From positions 1 through 33,995 of IMG/VR virus record IMGVR_UViG_2778261513_000009: DNA of 33,995 bases; one strand, given 5' to 3'. A program made the position numbers and the translations under genes. Below are positions 12,453 through 29,584 of this stretch, piece after piece; the first letter of the stretch is position 1, and each line of letters begins with the position of its first letter. Below the pieces are notes generated by a model, which saw only the letters and a list, made by a program, of their open reading frames with translations, was not told the origin of the DNA and did not search any database. This DNA comes from a virus (lineage: Duplodnaviria; Heunggongvirae; Uroviricota; Caudoviricetes).

Positions 12453-13090
12453 TTTGTCCCCTGCGTCCAGTCATCCCCGCCTTTAACGCCGCCGTGGCCG
12501 TGGTCATCCACCTGCACGCCGTTTGATTTGAACGTACCGCCGTCATGCTCGATGTTGCCGCTCATCTTCCCGCCCTTTTGCACCTCAAGCGTGGCCGTGG
12601 TCAGTTTGTTGGTGCAGACCACCTCGGGGGTATCGAGCGTGATGCGGGTGGACGCTTTGACCAGTACCAGCGGCACCGTTGCGGTAATGGCGTCCGACGC
12701 GGTAACGTCAGCGGTTTTAATACCGCTCACCGTGAGCGCCCCGCTCTCGGGTTCGTACTCAATAACCGCCCCGTCAGGAAAGGAAACGTGAAAGGCATCA
12801 GGCGAGGTCGACGGCGCAGGATGGTCATCAGAGAAAATACCGGGCAGCACAAAGGCGGTATCGAGCTCGCCACCAATGGCAAGAATAAGCACCTGCTCGC
12901 CAACCGAGGGAGCCCACCAGACACGCGAGCGACCGGCGCGGCAGGTCAGCCAGTTTAACCAGGTGGTTTGCATCCCGCCGGTCTGGACACGACAGAGCCC
13001 CTCATCGGGATTGACTGCGGTCACAATGCCGGTGCGGATAAGGTTTCGGATCGCGCGGGCGATATCCTGAATGGAATTTAAAGTATTCAT
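12449..13090 (-). CDS. V: Baseplate spike/hub protein V
   Basis: 213-aa ORF; size and order as P2 gpV; start overlaps the W start region. Confidence 0.85.
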   Translation of the reverse strand: MNTLNSIQDIARAIRNLIRTGIVTAVNPDEGLCRVQTGGMQTTWLNWLTCRAGRSRVWWAPSVGEQVLILAIGGELDTAFVLPGIFSDDHPAPSTSPDAFHVSFPDGAVIEYEPESGALTVSGIKTADVTASDAITATVPLVLVKASTRITLDTPEVVCTNKLTTATLEVQKGGKMSGNIEHDGGTFKSNGVQVDDHGHGGVKGGDDWTQGTK

Positions 13091-13305
13091 AGATAAAGGA
13101 TGCCGAGGGGCAGAGAATCCAGCAACAAAATGGAGTTTGATGAGAGCTAAGACAACATACCCTAATACTATCTATCATTGATGAAAGCACATCAGAGCAA
13201 TGATGCTATTGTGAGCTAGCGCGAATTATCAACTTCCGCTTTTGCGGTAGGAATGCATATGTTTAAAATGTTATATTCAAGAAAAAATTGACTGAGAGAT
13301 CTTTA

Positions 13306-14502
13306 ATGTTTGATTCGATAGTATTAAAACGCTCAATAGATGGCCCAACATTGACGATTGGCGAAATTGCTGAAGCATTAATTTTCTATCAAAATGTTCA
13401 CGTTGTAATGGACACATCAACCCTCCTCGGCATCATTAGAGAAATAGGGAGCCATAATGTAATCAAGTTATTAACACTCCCTGGTATAAAAACTACTTTC
13501 ATTGAGGAGTTCGTAGGTGTGTATGGCCAAGACACGTACCATGGAAAAGAGTACGCATTAATAAGCGCTTACTTTGCCGGAAGTGAAACAGATGGGGAAT
13601 TAAAAAGCTGGAAAAAAAGATTGGCAAACATGATTTCACGCCAAGGTTATAGCAAAGTTGAATCTGACAATTTTGTCGAAAGATTCAAAAGATGCGTAAC
13701 GTTAAAGAAACTCTCCAGCGACTACTTCATTAAAGGCGGTATAATATCAGCTGCACGTAGTGATTTAAATGATAGTGATTTCGTTTCATCGGCCGCACTC
13801 ATTATCTTGGAAGATTTATTACCTAAAGAGGAAATTACGAGCGACCTCTTTTATAAAACATTCCCAACCAGAGAAACCTTCCAAATCTCGACAAATATTA
13901 ATTTTGAAAAAATAAACAACTATAATGCTAATAAATTCTCTGACATTGGTGAAACAACCCCTGCAAGCATTGCAGCGGGAATCCTTAGCGCTTCATACGG
14001 ACTTATTTTAGCTGCTCACTACGGTGGCGATTTCTATACATCAGCGACAGACTCAAAGATCATTCAGTTCAAAAATAAACAACTACTCACCAGAACTAAC
14101 GCAAACCGTAAAGAACTAGAAACCTTCAATGAGGTGATTTTGAAGGATTGCCCAAATATATCCTCAATCATAAATAAAAAAGAACGTTCCTTTGAGGAAT
14201 TTTTAGAGTTACTTTCAAAAGCTAATAAATTTAAAAACTGGCTAAAAAACAAATCCCCAGATAAAAATCTTCTATCGAACTATGTTGATGATATTTCGAA
14301 AACAGGATGGATGGGAAGTAGTTATGGGAAGGCCTTACGTTACATTGTAAGTACTGGTGCAGGAATCATTAGCCCAGCGAGCGGACTTGCCATATCCGCA
14401 CTAGATACATTTTTATTAGACAGACTTAGCGCAGGCTGGAAACCAAATCAATTCGTCACATCAAAACTAAAACCTTTTGTTGATGTTAATGATGAATTTT
14501 AA
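13306..14502 (+). CDS. Hypothetical 398-aa protein of unknown function (AT-rich cargo gene between V and S, opposite strand)
   Basis: Long uninterrupted ORF in a markedly AT-rich segment (GC-rich backbone on both sides), antisense to the late operon and followed by its own hairpin terminator. I recognise no family. The ORF track starts at TTG 13288; ATG 13306 is the likely start. Confidence 0.6.
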   Translation: MFDSIVLKRSIDGPTLTIGEIAEALIFYQNVHVVMDTSTLLGIIREIGSHNVIKLLTLPGIKTTFIEEFVGVYGQDTYHGKEYALISAYFAGSETDGELKSWKKRLANMISRQGYSKVESDNFVERFKRCVTLKKLSSDYFIKGGIISAARSDLNDSDFVSSAALIILEDLLPKEEITSDLFYKTFPTRETFQISTNINFEKINNYNANKFSDIGETTPASIAAGILSASYGLILAAHYGGDFYTSATDSKIIQFKNKQLLTRTNANRKELETFNEVILKDCPNISSIINKKERSFEEFLELLSKANKFKNWLKNKSPDKNLLSNYVDDISKTGWMGSSYGKALRYIVSTGAGIISPASGLAISALDTFLLDRLSAGWKPNQFVTSKLKPFVDVNDEF

Positions 14503-23188: not shown

Positions 23189-23253
23189 TTTTCGAAATAA
23201 ACATCTCAACATTATATTCAGCCCTGTAACTCAAGAACCACATATAATAACGT

Positions 23254-23278
23254 CACAGCCCACTTTATCGGGGCTGTG
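23254..23278. terminator. Bidirectional hairpin (cacagccc / gggctgtg) between convergent Q and the 370-aa cargo gene
   Basis: 8-bp perfect inverted repeat with a 9-nt loop and A/T-rich flanks. Confidence 0.5.
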
Positions 23279-23283
23279 ATAAT

Positions 23284-24396
23284 TTAACCAACCCTTGCTT
23301 TTTTATATGGACCACAACTCCAACTAAAGAAATTCTTACCTAACTTATACCATTTATCAGAAAGCACTGGTGTTAGGTGAGGATTATATTTTTTTAAACT
23401 TCCCTTTTGTATATATTTCAATGTATTGCTGAGCAAATTCTCTCCAAAACCATCATAACTTACACAAGCAGTGTTGCAGCTACAGCGTTTTGAGTCGATA
23501 TACTCACAATCATATTTTATATCAAGCTTCTTTAATATCGGACGCCAATATGCACCATGTTTTCGATCGAGTTCAAGGGCTGTTTTAAAATCAAAACCTT
23601 TTTTATGGTCAATGTAAAATTTTACTGATTCATCTACGGAGCAAAGATGCTTAAAGAAAATGAGAGATTTTTCTTTTTGTTGAAATTGACTTTGACTTCT
23701 TAATACATCTTCAATTGTCGATAAAGGAACTAGAGATTCTATTTCATGTACATCTAAAATCTCAACGAAACCTGAGCGAGTGATTTGTGAGCCCAAAAAA
23801 TGTGAGCAAGTACCCCCGAATGGGGCTCTAGGATGTTTTTTGTCATTATCCACAATACAAAAAACTATCTCATTATTTTGAATTGCACGCTCGAATACAT
23901 CCTTAGTACTACCCCCACCGCCATTTAGAGCGATAAAACCCATTTCGCAGCGAGATAAGTTAATACCTTCGGCATAATGAGCCGCTATAACTCTAAAAAA
24001 ATCAGAATCCAAAGGATTTTCACATACTATTTTCGTTTTTTGCAATTGTGCCGAGTCATTAAAATACAATGGACCACAAACAAATTTAAAAGATTCACCG
24101 TTCTGAACCCATCTAAATGATTTATCACTAATATTAAAGTCGACAGTTACATAAAATGAGACCTGGTTCAAGATAGCATAGTACTCTGTTAGACCCGACA
24201 AAGCCTCTTGCGCGTAACTTTTTGATGAAAGGCTATAAAGCCCGCTTTGATCATTGATAATAGTTTTAAAAAAAACCCTTGTCCCTATAACCAAGTGTTT
24301 TTGTTCAGCAAATGCCCGAAGTATATTCTCAACCGCTATGGCAAATGAATTATTTAGCACCTGCTCAGGTGTCGCATTTTCGATATGAATCAACAT
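23284..24396 (-). CDS. 370-aa protein with Toprim-like E...DxD core (putative nuclease effector), partner of the upstream ATPase
   Basis: Start codon 2 nt after the ATPase stop. Motifs read by eye: KIVCENPLDSDFF (E126), Gly-rich LNGGGGS, IVFCIVDNDKK (D183/D185) about 57 residues after the Glu, and a Cys-rich C-terminus. The Toprim assignment is unverified. Confidence 0.7.
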   Translation of the reverse strand: MLIHIENATPEQVLNNSFAIAVENILRAFAEQKHLVIGTRVFFKTIINDQSGLYSLSSKSYAQEALSGLTEYYAILNQVSFYVTVDFNISDKSFRWVQNGESFKFVCGPLYFNDSAQLQKTKIVCENPLDSDFFRVIAAHYAEGINLSRCEMGFIALNGGGGSTKDVFERAIQNNEIVFCIVDNDKKHPRAPFGGTCSHFLGSQITRSGFVEILDVHEIESLVPLSTIEDVLRSQSQFQQKEKSLIFFKHLCSVDESVKFYIDHKKGFDFKTALELDRKHGAYWRPILKKLDIKYDCEYIDSKRCSCNTACVSYDGFGENLLSNTLKYIQKGSLKKYNPHLTPVLSDKWYKLGKNFFSWSCGPYKKARVG

Positions 24397-24398
24397 AA

Positions 24399-25955
24399 CT
24401 ACTTACCAGAGAAAAAGCCAACCGGCCAATTTTGTAGGAAACCATTCTCGTCAAAATAAGATTTCTTAACTATGGTCTGCTGCTTTTCATCTTTTTCAAA
24501 TACCAGTATTGAAATATCATCCTGTGAAAGATTTTCATTTTCCTCAATATATTCACCAAGTGCTTCAATCATGGTCTGGCTATGTGTCTCAAAAATTATC
24601 TTCAAATCCACATTGTTTTCTTTTGCTTTAGTTACTACTTTTGCAAAAATACTTGCTAAATTATGTTGATATGACGGATGTAAATGCAATTCTGGCTGCT
24701 CAATGATAAATGTTATAGGTTTTCTAACCGTGGTAGCACGACGTTCTGTCTCAAGCCAAATGGCTGTAACTATCGGCAAAACCTGAGAGTAACCAAACCC
24801 CATATCACTAACATTATAGTTCTCACTATTTTCACCGGTATTTATTAAAATTGCAAAGTGAGAGCCACTTTGTTCAACCTTAATAATGAAATCAAAATTT
24901 AACTTTGTCCAATCTTCAAATTTTGATTTATCAGCCGGCCTTAATGAATTCAAAAGCATTGCAAGATTGGAACCAGTATGATCTATCTCATTAACCTGTA
25001 AATCTTGAAAGCGATAAAATCTTTCTGATGTAGCACGCAGTGGAGCTATGTACTTTACATTTCTGAATGAATCTGACAAGGATGTATTTATTATATCTAT
25101 AAGATTATTAATATTCCATCCAATTATAAATGGATATAACTCATTCATTATTTCATCATGTTGAAGTTCAAAGTTTCTACTAAAAACTTTTTGTTCCTTG
25201 AATAGAAAAGCAACTAATTTACTGGCGTACGCTTTGGGTATAAAGCCAATTCTTTTGAATGCCTCTGTCACTTGATTTATATCAGATTTAGTATGGAAAT
25301 ATTTCTTTATATATTTCGCTGCTGAATCAATAAATGACAATTCTAATGCCCTGTCATGCCTAGAATGTCTCAAATAGAATGATGTGCTTGGAGGAGGACT
25401 ATCTTCCTTACCCTTCAAAATTAGATTGGGTATGAACTGCCCAAGATTTTTAGCTATTATCCCATCACGCTCTATTGTTTTATCATCTGATTCAATGAGT
25501 AACTTAACATTACTGTTCTCATCCATTGAAATAAATATTGTTAAATCAGCCAATATAAGCTTAATCGTTTTTGTTTTTGTTTTTTTATCTTTAGAGTAAA
25601 CAGTCAACTCTGCTTCAACATCTGTTGGTTGCTTTGCTAAATCAGTAAAACGATAATATGTATATCTTTGTGAAACCTCTGGCGGAATTGAGAGTGAAAA
25701 ACTGAACGTAATTTCTTTTTTTTCAGAGTTTCGGGAAAGTACATCTGTAAAATCGCCAAAATCCACATATCGCCCATACCATAGTATTGGACCAGTAGTA
25801 TTTTCTTCTACAGATTGACGAAGTAAAGGAAATGTACGCAATAGGGAACTTTTACCACTGCTGTTCTTACCAACAAATACTGTAATTGGTTTTAAATCAA
25901 TAAAAGTTTTGTTGACAAAGCTCCTGAAGTTTTGAAGACCTATACCCTTAATCAT
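24399..25955 (-). CDS. ABC-type (AAA_15/AAA_21-like, OLD/AriA-like) P-loop ATPase, 518 aa
   Basis: Walker A VFVGKNSSGKSSLL; Walker B-like FIIEQPELHLHP; H-loop-like IFETHSQ. Start taken at ATG 25955 (MIKGIGLQNFRSF), which has GGAG 8 nt upstream; the ORF track extends to 26042 across the GC/AT junction. Confidence 0.8.
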   Translation of the reverse strand: MIKGIGLQNFRSFVNKTFIDLKPITVFVGKNSSGKSSLLRTFPLLRQSVEENTTGPILWYGRYVDFGDFTDVLSRNSEKKEITFSFSLSIPPEVSQRYTYYRFTDLAKQPTDVEAELTVYSKDKKTKTKTIKLILADLTIFISMDENSNVKLLIESDDKTIERDGIIAKNLGQFIPNLILKGKEDSPPPSTSFYLRHSRHDRALELSFIDSAAKYIKKYFHTKSDINQVTEAFKRIGFIPKAYASKLVAFLFKEQKVFSRNFELQHDEIMNELYPFIIGWNINNLIDIINTSLSDSFRNVKYIAPLRATSERFYRFQDLQVNEIDHTGSNLAMLLNSLRPADKSKFEDWTKLNFDFIIKVEQSGSHFAILINTGENSENYNVSDMGFGYSQVLPIVTAIWLETERRATTVRKPITFIIEQPELHLHPSYQHNLASIFAKVVTKAKENNVDLKIIFETHSQTMIEALGEYIEENENLSQDDISILVFEKDEKQQTIVKKSYFDENGFLQNWPVGFFSGK

Positions 25956-26327
25956 TCCTAGCTCCATTAGTTCAATAAAATCAATCGATTTTGAGACAAT
26001 CTTAATATCTTTGACAGGCGCGCGCAATGCTATCCCCGCCACGCCTGCCCGCTTAACGGGTCGCTTTTAATGCAGTTGCATGACCACACAGGATCCGCGC
26101 CAGCTCTGGCGGCGCGCGGCCAGAACGGGCAACCCTGACGCATGCAAAGCAATGCACCTGTTGCATGCGCGGCTAAAAAACCGGGAAATTGTGGGAAAAT
26201 GGCATAATAAAACCGGCTTTAATCGTGCCGGTTGAGGTTGGTCTCTACGGGACAGGCTAACGCCTCGCGGGGCTCGTTGTTCAACCCCGCAGGCACTGAA
26301 AACAAGTTTCAGCACCGGCGGCGTTTG

Positions 26328-26576
26328 CTAAGGTCGACGCGGTGGTGGCTTCGACATATTTGGTTGCCGAAACGCCTCAATTTTCGGATTGCTGATATCG
26401 CTGTATTTGCGGTGATTATCCCGGACGACACCGGCACATCCGACCAGTTCGTCAGGGGTCAGATTCTCGTTGATCATAATTTGCTGCAGGCGATGCACGA
26501 CGGCCATCAGCTTAATGTTTTGCGTTGAATGTACCGGCGGCACTGGCATCATTCGCATATGACTCATTTTAACCAC
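26328..26576 (-). CDS. Hypothetical small protein (82 aa) downstream of the ASCH-like gene
   Basis: ORF only; position corresponds to small early-operon ORFs of P2-like phages. No motif recognised. Confidence 0.3.
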   Translation of the reverse strand: MVKMSHMRMMPVPPVHSTQNIKLMAVVHRLQQIMINENLTPDELVGCAGVVRDNHRKYSDISNPKIEAFRQPNMSKPPPRRP

Positions 26577-27033: not shown

Positions 27034-29319
27034 TTACTCCTCTTGCATTGAGAATCCCGGCCACTCATCAGCAGCCGCGTATTTGAATTTTTTATCGCCA
27101 TAAATCACCGTTGCCCCACGCGCCAGCGCTTCAAGCTCCCACCGTTCCGGGGTAATGCTCTCCTGAGCCAAATCGAAACGAATTTTCGCTATGCGATCCC
27201 TTTCTGGTTTTGTCATCCTGGCTGATGGCGCTTGCTCGCTCGTTTTGAGTGGAGCATGGCTTCTTTGCTGGCGATTTTTGCGAGGGATACCAGCTTTTAA
27301 CGCGCCGTTAAGCACCTTCATGACGTCTGGCTCATTCCAGCCGATAACCCCGCGCTCAATCAGATTTAACACCGCTGCGGCTTGCTCAGACGGTGTGGGT
27401 GTCATAACTGGAGCATCACCGCCGGTGAGCTTTCCACAGTTATTGACAGGACTCCGAGGCGCGGCAGAGCCGCTTTTTAAGGTCAAAGGCTCAACGGCCA
27501 AAATCTTTGGAACAATGCGCCATTCGGCTGTACGGGTTACATGTATGCGACTCGCCCCGAGGTGAGGGGCATAAATGCCGACCACTCTCTCGATATCTTC
27601 CTCATATTCGTTGACCTCATCAGTCACCTTACGGGCGACCCTAACGGCCTGCGCATCACGCGGCATGTTTGCCCCACCCTGTGCGATGATATACAGGTTA
27701 AATTCACCTTCATCAGCAGCAGCCCGGACAGCCTCGACCCGGTCGTCAAACTCACTGGCGATACTCACGCCGCGCGGCAGCTTGCGCAGTTCGCGGTAAG
27801 CGCCCATTGTCGGTAGGCCAATTGGTTTAAACTGCGGGATGCGCCATGTAGACGCCCATGCAGTTACGGCTGCGGCGGTATCTTTCAGAGGCTTTCCGGT
27901 GTCGTGGTCGATCTGGCCGTCGAGTGCGTAGCCGTCGATATTTTTGGCAATGTATTTAGCGATATAACCCGCCGCACCGCCCTGATTAAGATGACGTGAC
28001 TCAAAGCGCTGTTTTGCCGCTCCCTTTTCGTGCCCGTCCTCTTTGAGAGCATAACGACGCATAATTTCGTTAATAGCTTTACGCTGACCGGGTTTGCAAA
28101 ACAGCATCATGTGCCAGTGTGGCGTCCCGTCGTGGTGCGGTTCGACAACACGCATCCCGTAAACCTCTAAATCGTTATCTTTGAAAGCGGTGCGTATCAG
28201 GCTCCAGATTCGGCACAGATAGCGCTGGCCGTCTTTGGGGGTAAATGCGGTTTCATTCCAGCCATGATTGAGCTACACAGTTTTGTTTTCACCTTTGCCG
28301 ACCTGTCGGGTCGGGTGATACTTCGATGGCGTGGTCAGCGTGATAAACATCCCCACGTCACCAACGCAGGCCGCGTAGCGTTCAATCCCGGCGATAGTGT
28401 TCATCAGTTCCATACGCCGTATTTCAGGGTTAGAAATACTCCCCATTACCTTACTGATGAGGTCGATACGTTCGCCGGTGACTTTGTTTTCCAGCTCGCA
28501 GGATTTCAGGTATTCGAGATTAGCCAGGCGGCGCGCGTGCACATCGCGGATCGCCATTTTGCTTGCGTAAGGTGAGCGGTCTTTGTTGACCTCGCCAGCC
28601 GCAATAAGCAGCGCCTCGCGCCAGCGCATCCGCTGCGCCTTGAGCTGGCTGACCCACCACTCATCTTTTATCAGACGGGAAATAGCAGAAAATGCCATGC
28701 GGATCGTCATCTGACCCTTACGGTATTTTTTCCAGTACATCGGGGTGAAGTTAAAAGCGCGAGCAATACCGGCCACCTGACCGTATAAATGCGCCTGCGC
28801 CTCATCGGTGAATAAAGTGTCTTTCCCGCCGTGCGCCTCCTCCCATGCGTCGCTTAACTCCTCGTATTTGCTCCAGAGTTGAGAAGCAATTCTGGCCGCA
28901 AACTTCTTAAGCTCTTTGTCATTCATATCCGGCAGGCGCACATACTGGTCACGCTCGGACAAAAAACCAATCGAGGCGGATTCATTCATTCCGCACAGCT
29001 CATTAACACGCTCAAGACGCGGCAGCAACTTGCGCTCAAACGTGTTTTTGAGGAAATACAGCCCACCCAAGGGGCTCTTTGTGCGGCGGATGAAGTTATA
29101 ACGCGAGGTAAACAGCGTTTGCAGGAAAAACGGCAGGCGATCAATCCGGTTTAAAACACCTTGCACCTGACGGAGTTCGGCACGTGTAAGGGGTCTGTCG
29201 CGGCCAACTGCCTCGCGGGATTTATTCCACGGATAAGCACCGACGAAATTATCACCGGTGCTTTTTGGTAGTGGCGGAGGTGGCGAGGGGGCAACGCGCC
29301 CCCGAGTTTCAACGGCCAT
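27034..29319 (-). pseudogene. A: Replication initiation protein A (rolling-circle HUH endonuclease) interrupted by an in-frame amber codon at 28273-28275
   Basis: ORFs 28273-29397 and 27034-28155 are in the same frame; the 117 nt between them has no stop other than TAG at 28273-28275. The joined product would be about 761 aa from ATG 29319, carrying the HUH motif (HWHMMLF) and a tandem-tyrosine motif (YIAKYIAK). Confidence 0.8.
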
Positions 29320-29584
29320 CTGCAGCAAACGCAATCTGACATTGCTGACCAATGCGCTCGACCTGCTCGCCAATGTCCGCAAAACTAGCCGCCTCACCGG
29401 TCAGAATGCCATGTAATATCAGACCAGATACGAGTCTGGAAACTGTTGGATAATAGCCAATTACACCGAGCCACTCTTTACCGGCGCTCTTTCCTGATTT
29501 TGCGGTTTTCTTTTCCTGCAAAATAAATTGAAACTGGTCACTAGTGACGACGAAACGGTCGCCCACCTCAATATAAATTGACAT
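29309..29584 (-). CDS. Hypothetical early-operon protein (orf82/83-like position)
   Basis: 91-aa ORF immediately upstream of A, overlapping its start by 11 nt. Confidence 0.55.
   Translation of the reverse strand: MSIYIEVGDRFVVTSDQFQFILQEKKTAKSGKSAGKEWLGVIGYYPTVSRLVSGLILHGILTGEAASFADIGEQVERIGQQCQIAFAADGR

What the first reader, a model, noticed from the sequence alone, without database searches (positions are those of the whole stretch)
23284..25955. Two-gene ATPase plus Toprim-like operon in an AT-rich island beside portal gene Q: candidate anti-phage system
An ABC-type ATPase (Walker A GKNSSGKS, Walker B-like IIEQPELHLHP, H-loop ETHS) is translationally coupled to a 370-aa protein with a Toprim-like E...DxD core (E126, D183/D185). 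The ATPase plus Toprim combination is the logic of OLD, Gabija GajA and PARIS (AriA/AriB). Here the putative Toprim sits mid-protein behind an unrecognised ~120-aa N-terminal domain and before a Cys-rich C-terminus, which does not match my recollection of AriB. The pair lies in markedly AT-rich DNA in the variable region where P2 itself carries old and tin, a known defence hotspot of P2-like prophages. I read this as a divergent or undescribed OLD/PARIS-family defence module.
Basis: partly seen in the sequence, partly recalled or inferred. Interest (0 to 1): 0.85.

Follow-up and report, generated by a model that had tools for sequence, protein, structure and literature searches.

The report
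ATPase plus Toprim-nuclease phage-defence candidate
A P2-like E. coli prophage carries, right next to its packaging site, a two-gene cassette (an ATP-binding switch protein plus a very divergent OLD-type nuclease) that has all the hallmarks of an anti-phage defence system; it has been catalogued before but never annotated or tested.

Summary
Two tightly linked minus-strand genes (ATPase 24399-25955, 518 aa; partner 23284-24396, 370 aa) fill a 34% GC island between the prophage cos site and the stop codon of portal gene Q.

- **ATPase.** It is an OLD-type ABC ATPase with a DUF3696 tail. Its closest model is Menshen NsnB, not AriA or Old, and it shares NsnB's unusual motifs.
- **Partner.** It matches no Pfam family. 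A confident AlphaFold model finds OLD-family Toprim nucleases as its best structural matches, at modest scores. The Toprim Glu, Gly and DxD motifs are invariant in 108 homologues. The protein also has a variable Rossmann-like N-domain and a Cys-rich C-terminal part.
- **Conservation of the pair.** The ATPase sits directly upstream in all 17 related loci checked, and no NsnA gene is present.
- **Prior record.** The pair is system #36 in the Rousset 2022 P2-hotspot table (105 occurrences, no comment). Distant relatives are PADLOC's untested candidate PDC-M55.

Best reading: an ATPase-controlled Toprim nuclease acting in abortive infection or defence. It is a new variant of a known kind. Defence itself has not been tested.

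The parts
24399..25955 (-). ABC ATPase gene (518 aa), OLD-ABC/NsnB-like, with a C-terminal DUF3696 tail (residues 477-515, nt 24411-24527)
   Evidence: Pfam AAA_15 1.3e-26, AAA_21 8.4e-19, DUF3696 30.1 bits against a cut-off of 22. PADLOC NsnB 5.8e-55, PDC-M55A 3.1e-46, HEC-03 ATPase 8e-37. BLASTP to an E. coli NsnB: 29% identity over 176 aa, E=3e-16.
25848..25871 (-). Walker A motif GKNSSGKS (ATPase residues 29-36)
   Evidence: Read from the sequence; conserved in 10 homologues.
25011..25043 (-). PLRATSERFYR: an arginine-containing motif that I take to stand in for the ABC Q-loop
   Evidence: P-LRA..ER.YR is conserved in 10 homologues. NsnB also has Arg in place of the Q motif (PMC12065111).
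24771..24806 (-). Signature-motif equivalent DMGFGYSQVLPI (GxG in place of SGG)
   Evidence: DMGFG.SQ.LPI is invariant in 10 homologues. The same substitution is described for NsnB and aligns with the NsnB sequence.
24675..24707 (-). Walker B variant IIEQPELHLHP (E419-Q420 in place of the canonical D-E)
   Evidence: IEQPELHLHP is invariant in 10 homologues. NsnB has EN at the same place.
24579..24590 (-). H-loop ETHS (ATPase residues 456-459)
   Evidence: Invariant in 10 homologues.
23284..24396 (-). Partner (effector) gene, 370 aa; a family with no Pfam model
   Evidence: Full-length homologues: 31 clusters at 90% identity and 1111 representatives at 50% identity with E<=1e-3. No Pfam hit in any of 108 members. 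74 of 108 members hit PADLOC PDC-M55B. AF2 pLDDT 94.8, pTM 0.92.
24043..24396 (-). Partner N-terminal domain (residues 1-118): variable Rossmann-like alpha/beta domain, proposed adaptor or recognition domain
23692..24042 (-). Toprim core (residues 119-235): E126-x3-D130 after beta1, G159-G161 after beta2, D183-x-D185 at the end of beta3, E218/E220 after beta4
23287..23691 (-). C-terminal helical region: D263-x-K265-x-G267 motif, Cys cluster (C297/Y299, C305, C311; nt 23464-23508) and C361
   Evidence: D263 105/108, K265 105/108, G267 107/108; Cys columns 103, 101, 98 and 94 of 108. pLDDT drops to 65-71 around residues 291-310. Zinc binding and a K562-like role for K265 are inferences.
26027..26045 (-). 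cos-like site GGCGTGGCGGGGATAGCAT, marking the upstream boundary of the island
   Evidence: 16/19 match to P2 cos; 0.01 matches expected by chance. Flanks align to the P2 right end, and similarity to the P2 left end stops about 7 bases after cos.
23254..23278 (.). Inverted repeat CACAGCCC-N9-GGGCTGTG between the convergent stop codons of the partner gene and portal gene Q; possible bidirectional terminator
   Evidence: Read from the sequence. The terminator scan did not flag it because the T-run is weak.
23189..26017 (.). AT-rich island (GC 0.339) between the Q stop codon and cos
   Evidence: The cassette has the same position in four other P2-like viral contigs, with 38-96% partner identity.

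Best explanation
This is a two-gene accessory ('moron') cassette of a P2-like prophage that most likely works as an anti-phage or abortive-infection system.

Gene 1 encodes an OLD-clade ABC ATPase of the NsnB type. It has variable inserts, which are the probable sensor, and a C-terminal DUF3696 tail. Gene 2 encodes the effector, a two-metal Toprim nuclease of the OLD/AriB kind. That nuclease is preceded by a fast-evolving Rossmann-like N-domain and followed by a helical, Cys-rich (probably zinc-stabilised) region.

Proposed mechanism, all of it inferred:
1. ATPase oligomers hold the nuclease inactive, probably by clamping its N-domain with the DUF3696 tails.
2. A phage cue sensed by the ATPase changes its nucleotide-bound state. 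The Walker B is E-Q rather than D-E, which suggests an ATP-binding switch more than a fast hydrolase.
3. The nuclease is released or activated.
4. It cuts nucleic acid, with tRNA as the leading guess by analogy with AriB and P2 Old. This stops the growth of the infecting phage at the cost of the cell.

Shown here: the gene pair, the domain identities, the catalytic motifs, the conserved linkage and the hotspot location. Inferred: defence itself, the physical complex, the trigger and the substrate.
For: **ATPase identity.** Pfam and PADLOC matches. Motif pattern shared with NsnB. Direct BLASTP to an E. coli NsnB, E=3e-16, covering the signature motif, Walker B, H-loop and the WPxGFF tail.

**Effector identity.**
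- High-confidence model, pLDDT 94.8.
- Best Foldseek matches are XccOLD and GajA.
- Weak HMM hits to the GajA Toprim region.
- hhalign places E126/D130, GGG and DxD in register with the Old ExxxE, G and DxD motifs.
- These residues are invariant in 108 homologues.
- They correspond to the catalytic set defined for OLD nucleases (PMC6755086).

**Linkage.** The ATPase is immediately upstream on the same strand in all 17 related loci examined:
- three complete E. coli genomes;
- Thiothrix, a cyanobacterium and four metagenome contigs (in L003 and L007 the upstream ORF is cut by the contig end and was not scored against the ATPase);
- eight viral contigs.

**Defence context.**
- AT-rich island in the cos-proximal gpA-gpQ hotspot, where old, tin and many validated systems sit.
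- Same position in P2-like contigs even where partner identity is only 38%.
- Directly downstream of a Kiwa KwaB-like gene in another phage contig.
- Relatives were picked as candidate PDC-M55 because they are embedded in BREX, DISARM or type I RM loci.
- Patchy presence: 39 of 5426 complete E. coli genomes.

**Precedents for the mechanism.**
- PARIS: AriA sequesters AriB, which is a tRNase (PMC11464382, PMC12409363; listed).
- Predicted NsnB DUF3696 tails binding the NsnC N-domain.
- HEC-03 (ABC ATPase plus PIN protein) is validated, with both genes required.
- P2 OLD is reported to be an abortive tRNase (bioRxiv 10.64898/2026.07.10.737580; title and abstract as listed).
Against: - No experiment shows defence, toxicity or nuclease activity for this pair or any close relative. 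PDC systems are explicitly untested, and Rousset's entry #36 carries no comment and is absent from their table of cloned systems.
- Sequence-profile support is weak: hhalign P=0.016; no hit to Pfam OLD-like_TOPRIM or DUF4435; nothing in PDB by HMM.
- The proposed tail-to-N-domain contact is only an analogy. The N-domain shows no PIN similarity and no similarity to an E. coli NsnC.
- No promoter-like site was found between cos and the ATG.
- The E. coli lineage has Tyr at a Cys column conserved in 103 of 108 homologues.
- HEC-01, another split ATPase plus Toprim pair, gave no defence in its authors' assays.
Confidence: 0.62

Rival explanations
1. Same components, but a Gabija-like mechanism. 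The ATPase and nuclease form a constitutive complex whose Toprim domain cuts DNA. Bound ATP restrains the nuclease, and nucleotide depletion or a DNA-end signal during infection switches it on. Nothing is released and tRNA is not the target.
For: The Walker B E-Q variant suggests nucleotide binding without fast hydrolysis. The best fold match is a class 2 (Gabija-type) OLD Toprim, which cleaves DNA in vitro. The only sequence-model hits of the partner are to the GajA Toprim region. NsnB is predicted to form a GajA-like tetramer.
Against: No GajB-like helicase gene is adjacent in any locus. The nuclease is a separate polypeptide with its own variable N-domain, as in the release-type systems PARIS and predicted Menshen. 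OLD and AriB are now reported to be tRNases.
Confidence: 0.18
2. A toxin-antitoxin or addiction module that stabilises the prophage, with the nuclease as toxin and the ATPase as antitoxin, and no role against other phages.
For: The genes are tightly coupled and the effector is potentially toxic. Relatives sit near BrnT/BrnA and nucleotidyltransferase genes. AAA_21 carries an 'AbiEii/type IV TA' label in Pfam.
Against: The cassette occupies a hotspot where cargo is exchanged rather than fixed. One natural copy (UTAK-6) carries a frameshifted nuclease next to an intact ATPase. The Thiothrix copy has an IS-disrupted ATPase with an apparently intact nuclease gene, which a simple toxin-antitoxin model would not tolerate. 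In PARIS, deleting either gene was not toxic.
Confidence: 0.1
3. A degenerate Menshen system that has lost its NsnA (ParB-DUF262) sensor gene and is now non-functional or only partly functional.
For: The ATPase is NsnB-like in motifs, tail and best PADLOC hit. Some NsnC effectors carry Toprim-fold nuclease domains behind an N-terminal adaptor.
Against: No DUF262 gene is present in the window or in any of the 17 related loci across distant taxa. The two-gene form is therefore the ancestral state of a family with 1111 representative clusters, not a recent loss. The partner shows no similarity to an E. coli NsnC. The ATPase is about 160 aa longer than that NsnB.
Confidence: 0.05
4. A housekeeping phage function linked to cos, such as DNA-end processing, priming or packaging, carried out by a Toprim enzyme and an ATPase.
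For: The cassette starts about 10 bp from cos. Toprim domains also occur in primases and topoisomerases.
Against: P2 itself and most P2-like prophages lack it: it is in 39 of 5426 E. coli genomes, and P2 has only 167 bp between cos and Q. Its base composition is foreign. The same pair occurs in bacterial chromosomes and in unrelated phage backbones far from any cos site.
Confidence: 0.03

Closest known systems
PADLOC candidate system PDC-M55 (Payne et al. 2024, bioRxiv 10.1101/2024.01.29.577857)
   Same: Same two protein families. The ATPase hits PDC-M55A at 3.1e-46, and 74 of 108 partner homologues hit PDC-M55B, best 6.4e-13. Both are ABC ATPase plus an unannotated partner of about 370 aa.
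   Different: The window's own partner does not reach the PDC-M55B model even at E<=1, so it belongs to a divergent enterobacterial or phage-borne branch. PDC-M55 was defined from cassettes embedded in BREX, DISARM or RM loci and was listed with a third family, FAM_00004. PDC-M55 is itself untested.
Rousset et al. 2022 P2-hotspot system #36, 'AAA_15/AAA_21/AAA_23' (PMC9122126, Table S5B)
   Same: This is the same system. The listed protein sequences are near-identical to the window's two proteins, with 105 occurrences in E. coli P2-like hotspots. The partner WP_000906719 appears in Table S5A.
   Different: Only the ATPase domain is annotated there. The partner has no annotation and the entry has no comment. 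It does not appear among the cloned and tested systems.
Menshen (NsnA-NsnB-NsnC)
   Same: NsnB-type ATPase: best PADLOC hit, DUF3696 tail, Walker B DE replaced by E-Q (E-N in NsnB), Q-loop replaced by Arg, SGG replaced by GxG, and 29% identity to an E. coli NsnB over the C-terminal half. Effector layout of a variable N-domain followed by a nuclease, and some NsnC proteins carry Toprim-fold nucleases.
   Different: No NsnA sensor gene anywhere in the family. The N-domain is not detectably PIN-like. The Toprim is OLD-like rather than DUF4276 or RloB, with no Pfam hit. The ATPase has about 160 aa of extra inserts.
PARIS (AriA/AriB; 'class 4 OLD')
   Different: The partner is not DUF4435. Its Toprim sits mid-protein behind an extra domain. 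The ATPase has a DUF3696 tail and a non-canonical Walker B. The generic 'AriA' PADLOC model scores lower than NsnB, 107 against 185 bits.
OLD-family nucleases (P2 Old, class 1; GajA/BpOLD, class 2)
   Same: OLD-ABC ATPase combined with a two-metal Toprim. The best fold matches are BpOLD, TsOLD and XccOLD. ExxxD/E, Gly and DxD align in register with the Old family. Both are prophage accessory genes in the same P2 region.
   Different: Two polypeptides rather than one. No match to Pfam OLD-like_TOPRIM PF20469, which every Old homologue carries. Extra N-domain and Cys cluster. No helicase partner. Located on the other side of cos from old.
HEC-03 (ABC ATPase plus PIN protein; Payne et al. 2024)
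   Same: The ATPase's C-terminal half resembles the HEC-03 ATPase model, 8.1e-37. HEC-03 is a two-gene system that is experimentally active and needs both genes.
   Different: The HEC-03 effector is a VapC-like PIN nuclease, not a Toprim.

Membership tests
Toprim superfamily | Four-stranded parallel beta-sheet flanked by helices (as summarised in PMC6755086) | tested here: met
Toprim superfamily | Invariant glutamate next to beta1 | tested here: met
   E126 directly follows strand 121-125 and is present in 108/108 homologues. It aligns to the Old-family Toprim Glu.
Toprim superfamily | Invariant glycine after beta2 | tested here: met
   G159 in 107/108 and G161 in 108/108, following strand 154-158.
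Toprim superfamily | DxD motif at beta3 | tested here: met
   D183 and D185 in 108/108, at the end of strand 178-183. They align to the Old-family DxD.
OLD-family nucleases (classes 1-3) | ABC ATPase and Toprim fused in one polypeptide | tested here: not met
   Separate genes in the window and in all related loci.
OLD-family nucleases | Sequence match to the OLD-like Toprim model (Pfam PF20469) | tested here: not met
   No Pfam hit for the protein or for any of 108 homologues. All listed full-length P2 Old homologues carry PF20469.
OLD-family nucleases | Second metal site and catalytic lysine (BpOLD E404, T506/E508, K562) | tested here: inconclusive
   D130 (E-x3-D) aligns with the second Glu of ExxxE. 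E218/E220 after beta4 and K265 are conserved in 100-108 of 108 homologues. Three-dimensional equivalence could not be checked because no coordinates were available.
PARIS (AriA/AriB) | AriB is a DUF4435 (PF14491) Toprim protein | tested here: not met
   No DUF4435 hit at E<=10. The only PADLOC hit of the partner is a weak match to GajA.
PARIS (AriA/AriB) | AAA_15/AAA_21 ABC ATPase encoded next to the nuclease | tested here: met
   AAA_15 94.6 bits and AAA_21 69.2 bits. This feature is generic to the whole OLD-ABC clade.
PARIS (AriA/AriB) | Triggered by anti-restriction proteins such as Ocr; AriB released to cleave tRNA | not testable with these tools
   Needs infection and biochemical experiments.
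Menshen (NsnABC) | NsnA gene (ParB-DUF262 plus ParBDB) in the operon | tested here: not met
   No such gene in the window or in 17 related loci.
Menshen (NsnABC) | NsnB: ABC ATPase with DUF3696 tail and altered Walker B, Q-loop and signature motifs | tested here: met
   PADLOC NsnB 5.8e-55. DUF3696 above its Pfam cut-off. E-Q, Arg and GFG variants parallel the E-N, Arg and GxG of NsnB. BLASTP to an E. coli NsnB, E=3e-16.
Menshen (NsnABC) | NsnC: N-terminal inactive-PIN domain followed by an effector domain | tested here: inconclusive
PADLOC PDC-M55 | Both component HMMs (A and B) matched | tested here: inconclusive
   A is met at 3.1e-46. B is not matched by the window protein itself but is matched by 74 of 108 of its homologues. 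This is transitive rather than direct membership.
Gabija | GajB UvrD-like helicase gene adjacent to the OLD-type gene | tested here: not met
   No helicase ORF in the island or in related loci.

The most novel reading that the evidence does not exclude
The pair may represent a distinct, widespread branch of ABC-ATPase/Toprim immunity. It has 1111 representative clusters and no Pfam model. On this reading an NsnB-type ATPase works without the NsnA DNA sensor and senses infection itself through its enlarged inserts. It would control a new OLD-like nuclease through a DUF3696-tail to Rossmann-domain contact. That would link Menshen, PARIS and OLD in one modular scheme (interchangeable sensor, ATPase switch, adaptor and nuclease) and would amount to a fifth 'class' of OLD-type systems.
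Probability: 0.35. Interest if true: 0.6.

Novelty: new variant of a known kind. Interest (0 to 1): 0.45.

Why it matters
- **An unannotated family gets a fold and an active site.** RefSeq calls the partner 'hypothetical protein'. It has no Pfam family, although it has more than a thousand representative clusters. This analysis gives it a testable fold (OLD-like Toprim), catalytic residues and a functional partner.
- **The ATPase module looks portable.** An NsnB-type ATPase with a DUF3696 tail appears here without NsnA and with a different class of nuclease. If confirmed, this supports the idea that OLD-clade ABC ATPases are interchangeable switches that can be wired to many effectors.
- **Current tools would probably miss it in E. 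coli.** The window's partner does not reach PADLOC's PDC-M55B model. The pair is present in 39 complete E. coli genomes.
- **It is easy to test.** The cassette is compact, about 2.8 kb, and sits in a well-studied hotspot.

Tried and rejected
- **Sequence searches of the partner that found nothing useful.** Pfam and NCBIfam on the single protein and on 16 and 108 homologues. HMM profiles A1 and A2 against all PDB sequences gave only noise. hhalign of A2 against the single P2 Old sequence gave nothing; a weak in-register alignment appeared only after I built an Old-family profile.
- **Promoter.** The consensus scan found no sigma-70-like site between cos and the ATG, and its total count equals the shuffled expectation. 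The promoter is unassigned.
- **Systems considered and rejected.** Gabija: no helicase gene. HEC-01, MADS and AbiL: only the N-terminal P-loop region of the ATPase matches. PD-T4-4: no partner hit, and no PD-T4-4 model among the 25 best ATPase hits shown of 101.
- **Literature search for an experimental test.** I searched for DUF3696, PDC-M55, DefensePredictor and prophage ABC-ATPase/Toprim terms and found none. The library is incomplete, so this is not proof of absence.


Full report
**1. What is in the sequence**

The window is a P2-like prophage of E. coli, 99.9% identical over this region to strain UTAK-6. On the minus strand lie two ORFs. One is 518 aa (24399..25955 from its ATG; a GTG further upstream at 26042 extends it to 547 aa). 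The other is 370 aa (23284..24396).

The TAG stop of the first and the ATG of the second are 2 nt apart. In relatives the two genes overlap by 1-11 nt or are 1-3 nt apart, apart from a 48-nt gap in the cyanobacterial locus L004.

GC is 0.339 across 23189-26017 and 0.531 elsewhere.

The ATG at 25955 is the more credible start for three reasons. It is preceded by GGAG/AGGA. It matches position 1 of the AAA_15 profile. RefSeq uses it in other genomes. The GTG start would run across the cos site.

**2. Exact location**

A 19-nt sequence at 26027-26045 on the minus strand matches P2 cos at 16 of 19 positions, with 0.01 matches expected by chance. Its upstream flank aligns with the P2 right end. Similarity to the P2 left end stops about 7 bases after cos, where the AT-rich DNA begins.

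In P2, the interval between cos and the Q stop codon is 167 bp, and old and tin lie on the other side of cos. Here that interval is about 2.8 kb and consists of the cassette.

Both positions fall within the gpA-gpQ 'cos-proximal' hotspot of Rousset et al. (PMC9122126). At the old/tin position this prophage has only an 82-aa ORF.

The cassette occupies the same slot in four other P2-like viral contigs, with partner identity from 96% down to 38%.

**3. The ATPase**

Family matches:
- Pfam: AAA_15 1.3e-26, AAA_21 8.4e-19, and DUF3696 at residues 477-515 with 30.1 bits against a cut-off of 22.
- PADLOC, best to worst: NsnB (Menshen) 5.8e-55, PDC-M55A 3.1e-46, HEC-03 ATPase 8.1e-37, then a generic AriA model at 3.4e-31. 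GajA and Old score far lower.

An alignment of ten homologues shows these invariant motifs:
- Walker A G(K/Q)NSxGKS.
- P-LRA..ER.YR, with an arginine where I place the Q-loop.
- DMGFGxSQxLPI, with GxG in place of SGG.
- Walker B IEQPELHLHP, with E-Q in place of D-E.
- ETHS.
- A C-terminal NWPxGFF.

The Menshen study describes the same departures for NsnB: E-N, Arg and GxG (PMC12065111).

I took an E. coli NsnB sequence from Rousset's supplement. It aligns with the window ATPase at 29% identity over 176 aa (E=3e-16), covering the signature motif, Walker B, H-loop and tail. The window protein is about 160 aa longer, and the extra length lies in the poorly conserved middle region.

**4. The partner**

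No Pfam, NCBIfam or PDB sequence match exists for it, or for profiles of its homologues.

The family is nevertheless large. It has 31 clusters at 90% identity, mostly Enterobacterales. It has 1111 representatives at 50% identity with E<=1e-3, nearly all about 370 aa and matching end to end.

An AlphaFold2 model built on 108 sequences is confident, with pLDDT 94.8 and pTM 0.92.

Structural searches:
- Foldseek ranks the XccOLD C-terminal region first (E=0.024), followed by GajA.
- These scores are moderate, but the top of both lists is consistently OLD-family Toprim.

The three motifs that define Toprim (PMC6755086) sit where the model predicts:
- E126 follows strand 121-125 (108/108).
- G159 and G161 follow strand 154-158 (107/108 and 108/108).
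- D183-x-D185 ends strand 178-183 (108/108).

Further conserved residues parallel the OLD second-metal site and catalytic lysine: D130 (E-x3-D), E218, E220, and D263-x-K265-x-G267.

A profile of 115 P2 Old homologues aligns with the family profile with ExxxE, G and DxD all in register. The statistics are weak, P=0.016. Weak HMM hits to the GajA Toprim region point the same way.

I conclude that residues about 119-235 are an OLD-like Toprim nuclease core, too diverged for current sequence models to detect.

**5. The flanking domains of the partner**

*C-terminal part.* It is helical and carries Cys columns conserved in 94-103 of 108 sequences. A structural zinc site is a reasonable guess, nothing more.

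In the E. coli lineage, including a cluster of 134 sequences, the first of these Cys is Tyr299, with a Cys two residues earlier at 297. Two relatives lack the loop altogether.

**6. The pair is a conserved unit**

In every related locus I examined, the ATPase gene is directly upstream on the same strand:
- E. coli genomes.
- Thiothrix, where an IS element splits the ATPase.
- A cyanobacterium.
- Metagenome contigs.
- Eight viral contigs.

No DUF262/NsnA-like gene and no helicase gene accompany it.

The ATPase diverges more slowly than the partner. For example, identities are 51% against 38% in L016 and 41% against 25% in L005.

**7. Evidence for a defence role (contextual only)**

- The cassette is foreign in composition and patchy in distribution, in 39 of 5426 complete E. 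coli genomes.
- It sits in a hotspot that carries old, tin, retrons, restriction enzymes and several validated systems.
- In one unrelated phage contig it lies directly after a Kiwa KwaB-like gene. In another it is an AT-rich insert in a lambda-type backbone.
- Its relatives were nominated as candidate PDC-M55 because they are embedded inside BREX, DISARM or type I RM loci.

**8. Prior knowledge**

The pair is already listed as system #36, 'AAA_15/AAA_21/AAA_23', with 105 occurrences in Table S5B of Rousset et al. The entry has no comment and does not appear in their table of cloned systems.

PDC systems are stated to be untested. I found no paper that tests or names this pair. The library is incomplete, so a test may exist elsewhere.

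**9. Mechanism**

By analogy with three systems, I propose that the ATPase holds the nuclease in check and frees or activates it on sensing infection:
- PARIS, where AriA sequesters the tRNase AriB.
- The predicted clamping of the NsnC N-domain by NsnB DUF3696 tails.
- HEC-03, where both genes are needed.

The E-Q Walker B suggests a nucleotide-binding switch. The substrate is unknown. tRNA is favoured by the recent AriB and P2 OLD work, and DNA by the in vitro activity of class 2 OLD. A Gabija-like constitutive complex that responds to nucleotides is the main mechanistic rival.

My confidence by step:

| Step | Confidence |
|---|---|
| Regulated nuclease | fairly high |
| Defence function | moderate |
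| Physical arrangement, trigger and substrate | low |

**10. Verdict**

The cassette fails the membership tests for OLD (fused polypeptide, PF20469), PARIS (DUF4435), Menshen (NsnA) and Gabija (GajB). It works like all of them.

It is best filed as a new variant of the ABC-ATPase plus Toprim kind, distantly within PADLOC's PDC-M55 candidate family. Interest is moderate. The theme is familiar, but the partner family is large, unannotated and now has a clear, testable active site.

Noticed in passing
window 13000-14500 (ORF 13288..14502, + strand): A second AT-rich island (GC 0.36-0.39) inside the tail/baseplate gene block holds a 404-aa ORF on the strand opposite to its neighbours. It has no Pfam or PADLOC match and may be another accessory or hotspot gene.
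   Followed up: partly
window 27034-29397 (- strand): The replication endonuclease gene A is split by an in-frame stop into ORFs of 373 and 374 aa. The UTAK-6 copy is intact at 761 aa and differs by only 2 substitutions and no gaps. The prophage may be replication-defective, or this may be a sequencing error.
   Followed up: partly
L001 6000-7210 (E. coli UTAK-6): The 99.9% identical UTAK-6 copy has a 1-bp indel that truncates the partner protein after residue about 335, removing W349, W359 and C361. The ATPase is intact. This is a natural nuclease-defective allele.
   Followed up: yes
window 23500-23502 (partner residue 299): The E. coli lineage has Tyr at a column that is Cys in 103 of 108 homologues, with a lineage-specific Cys two residues earlier (C297). 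Two relatives (P0004, P0028) lack the whole Cys loop.
   Followed up: partly
window 25956-26042: RefSeq annotates the ATPase of UTAK-6 from a GTG 87 nt upstream (547 aa), which overlaps the cos-like site. Other genomes use the ATG (518 aa). The long start is probably an annotation artefact.
   Followed up: yes
window 26328-26576 (- strand) and 26046-26327: At the position where P2 carries tin and old, this prophage has only an 82-aa ORF with no Pfam match, followed by about 280 bp of GC-rich non-coding DNA leading to cos. This stretch includes a hairpin plus T-run around 26200-26228.
   Followed up: partly
L017 2320-3956: In an unrelated viral contig, the homologous pair lies directly downstream of a Kiwa KwaB-like gene (Pfam 3e-21) and a 205-aa ORF that could be KwaA.
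   Followed up: partly
L002 3338-6001 (Thiothrix unzii): The ATPase gene of the Thiothrix copy is interrupted by an IS element (HTH plus DDE_3 transposase), while the nuclease gene is still a full-length ORF. A BrnT/BrnA pair lies just downstream.
   Followed up: no
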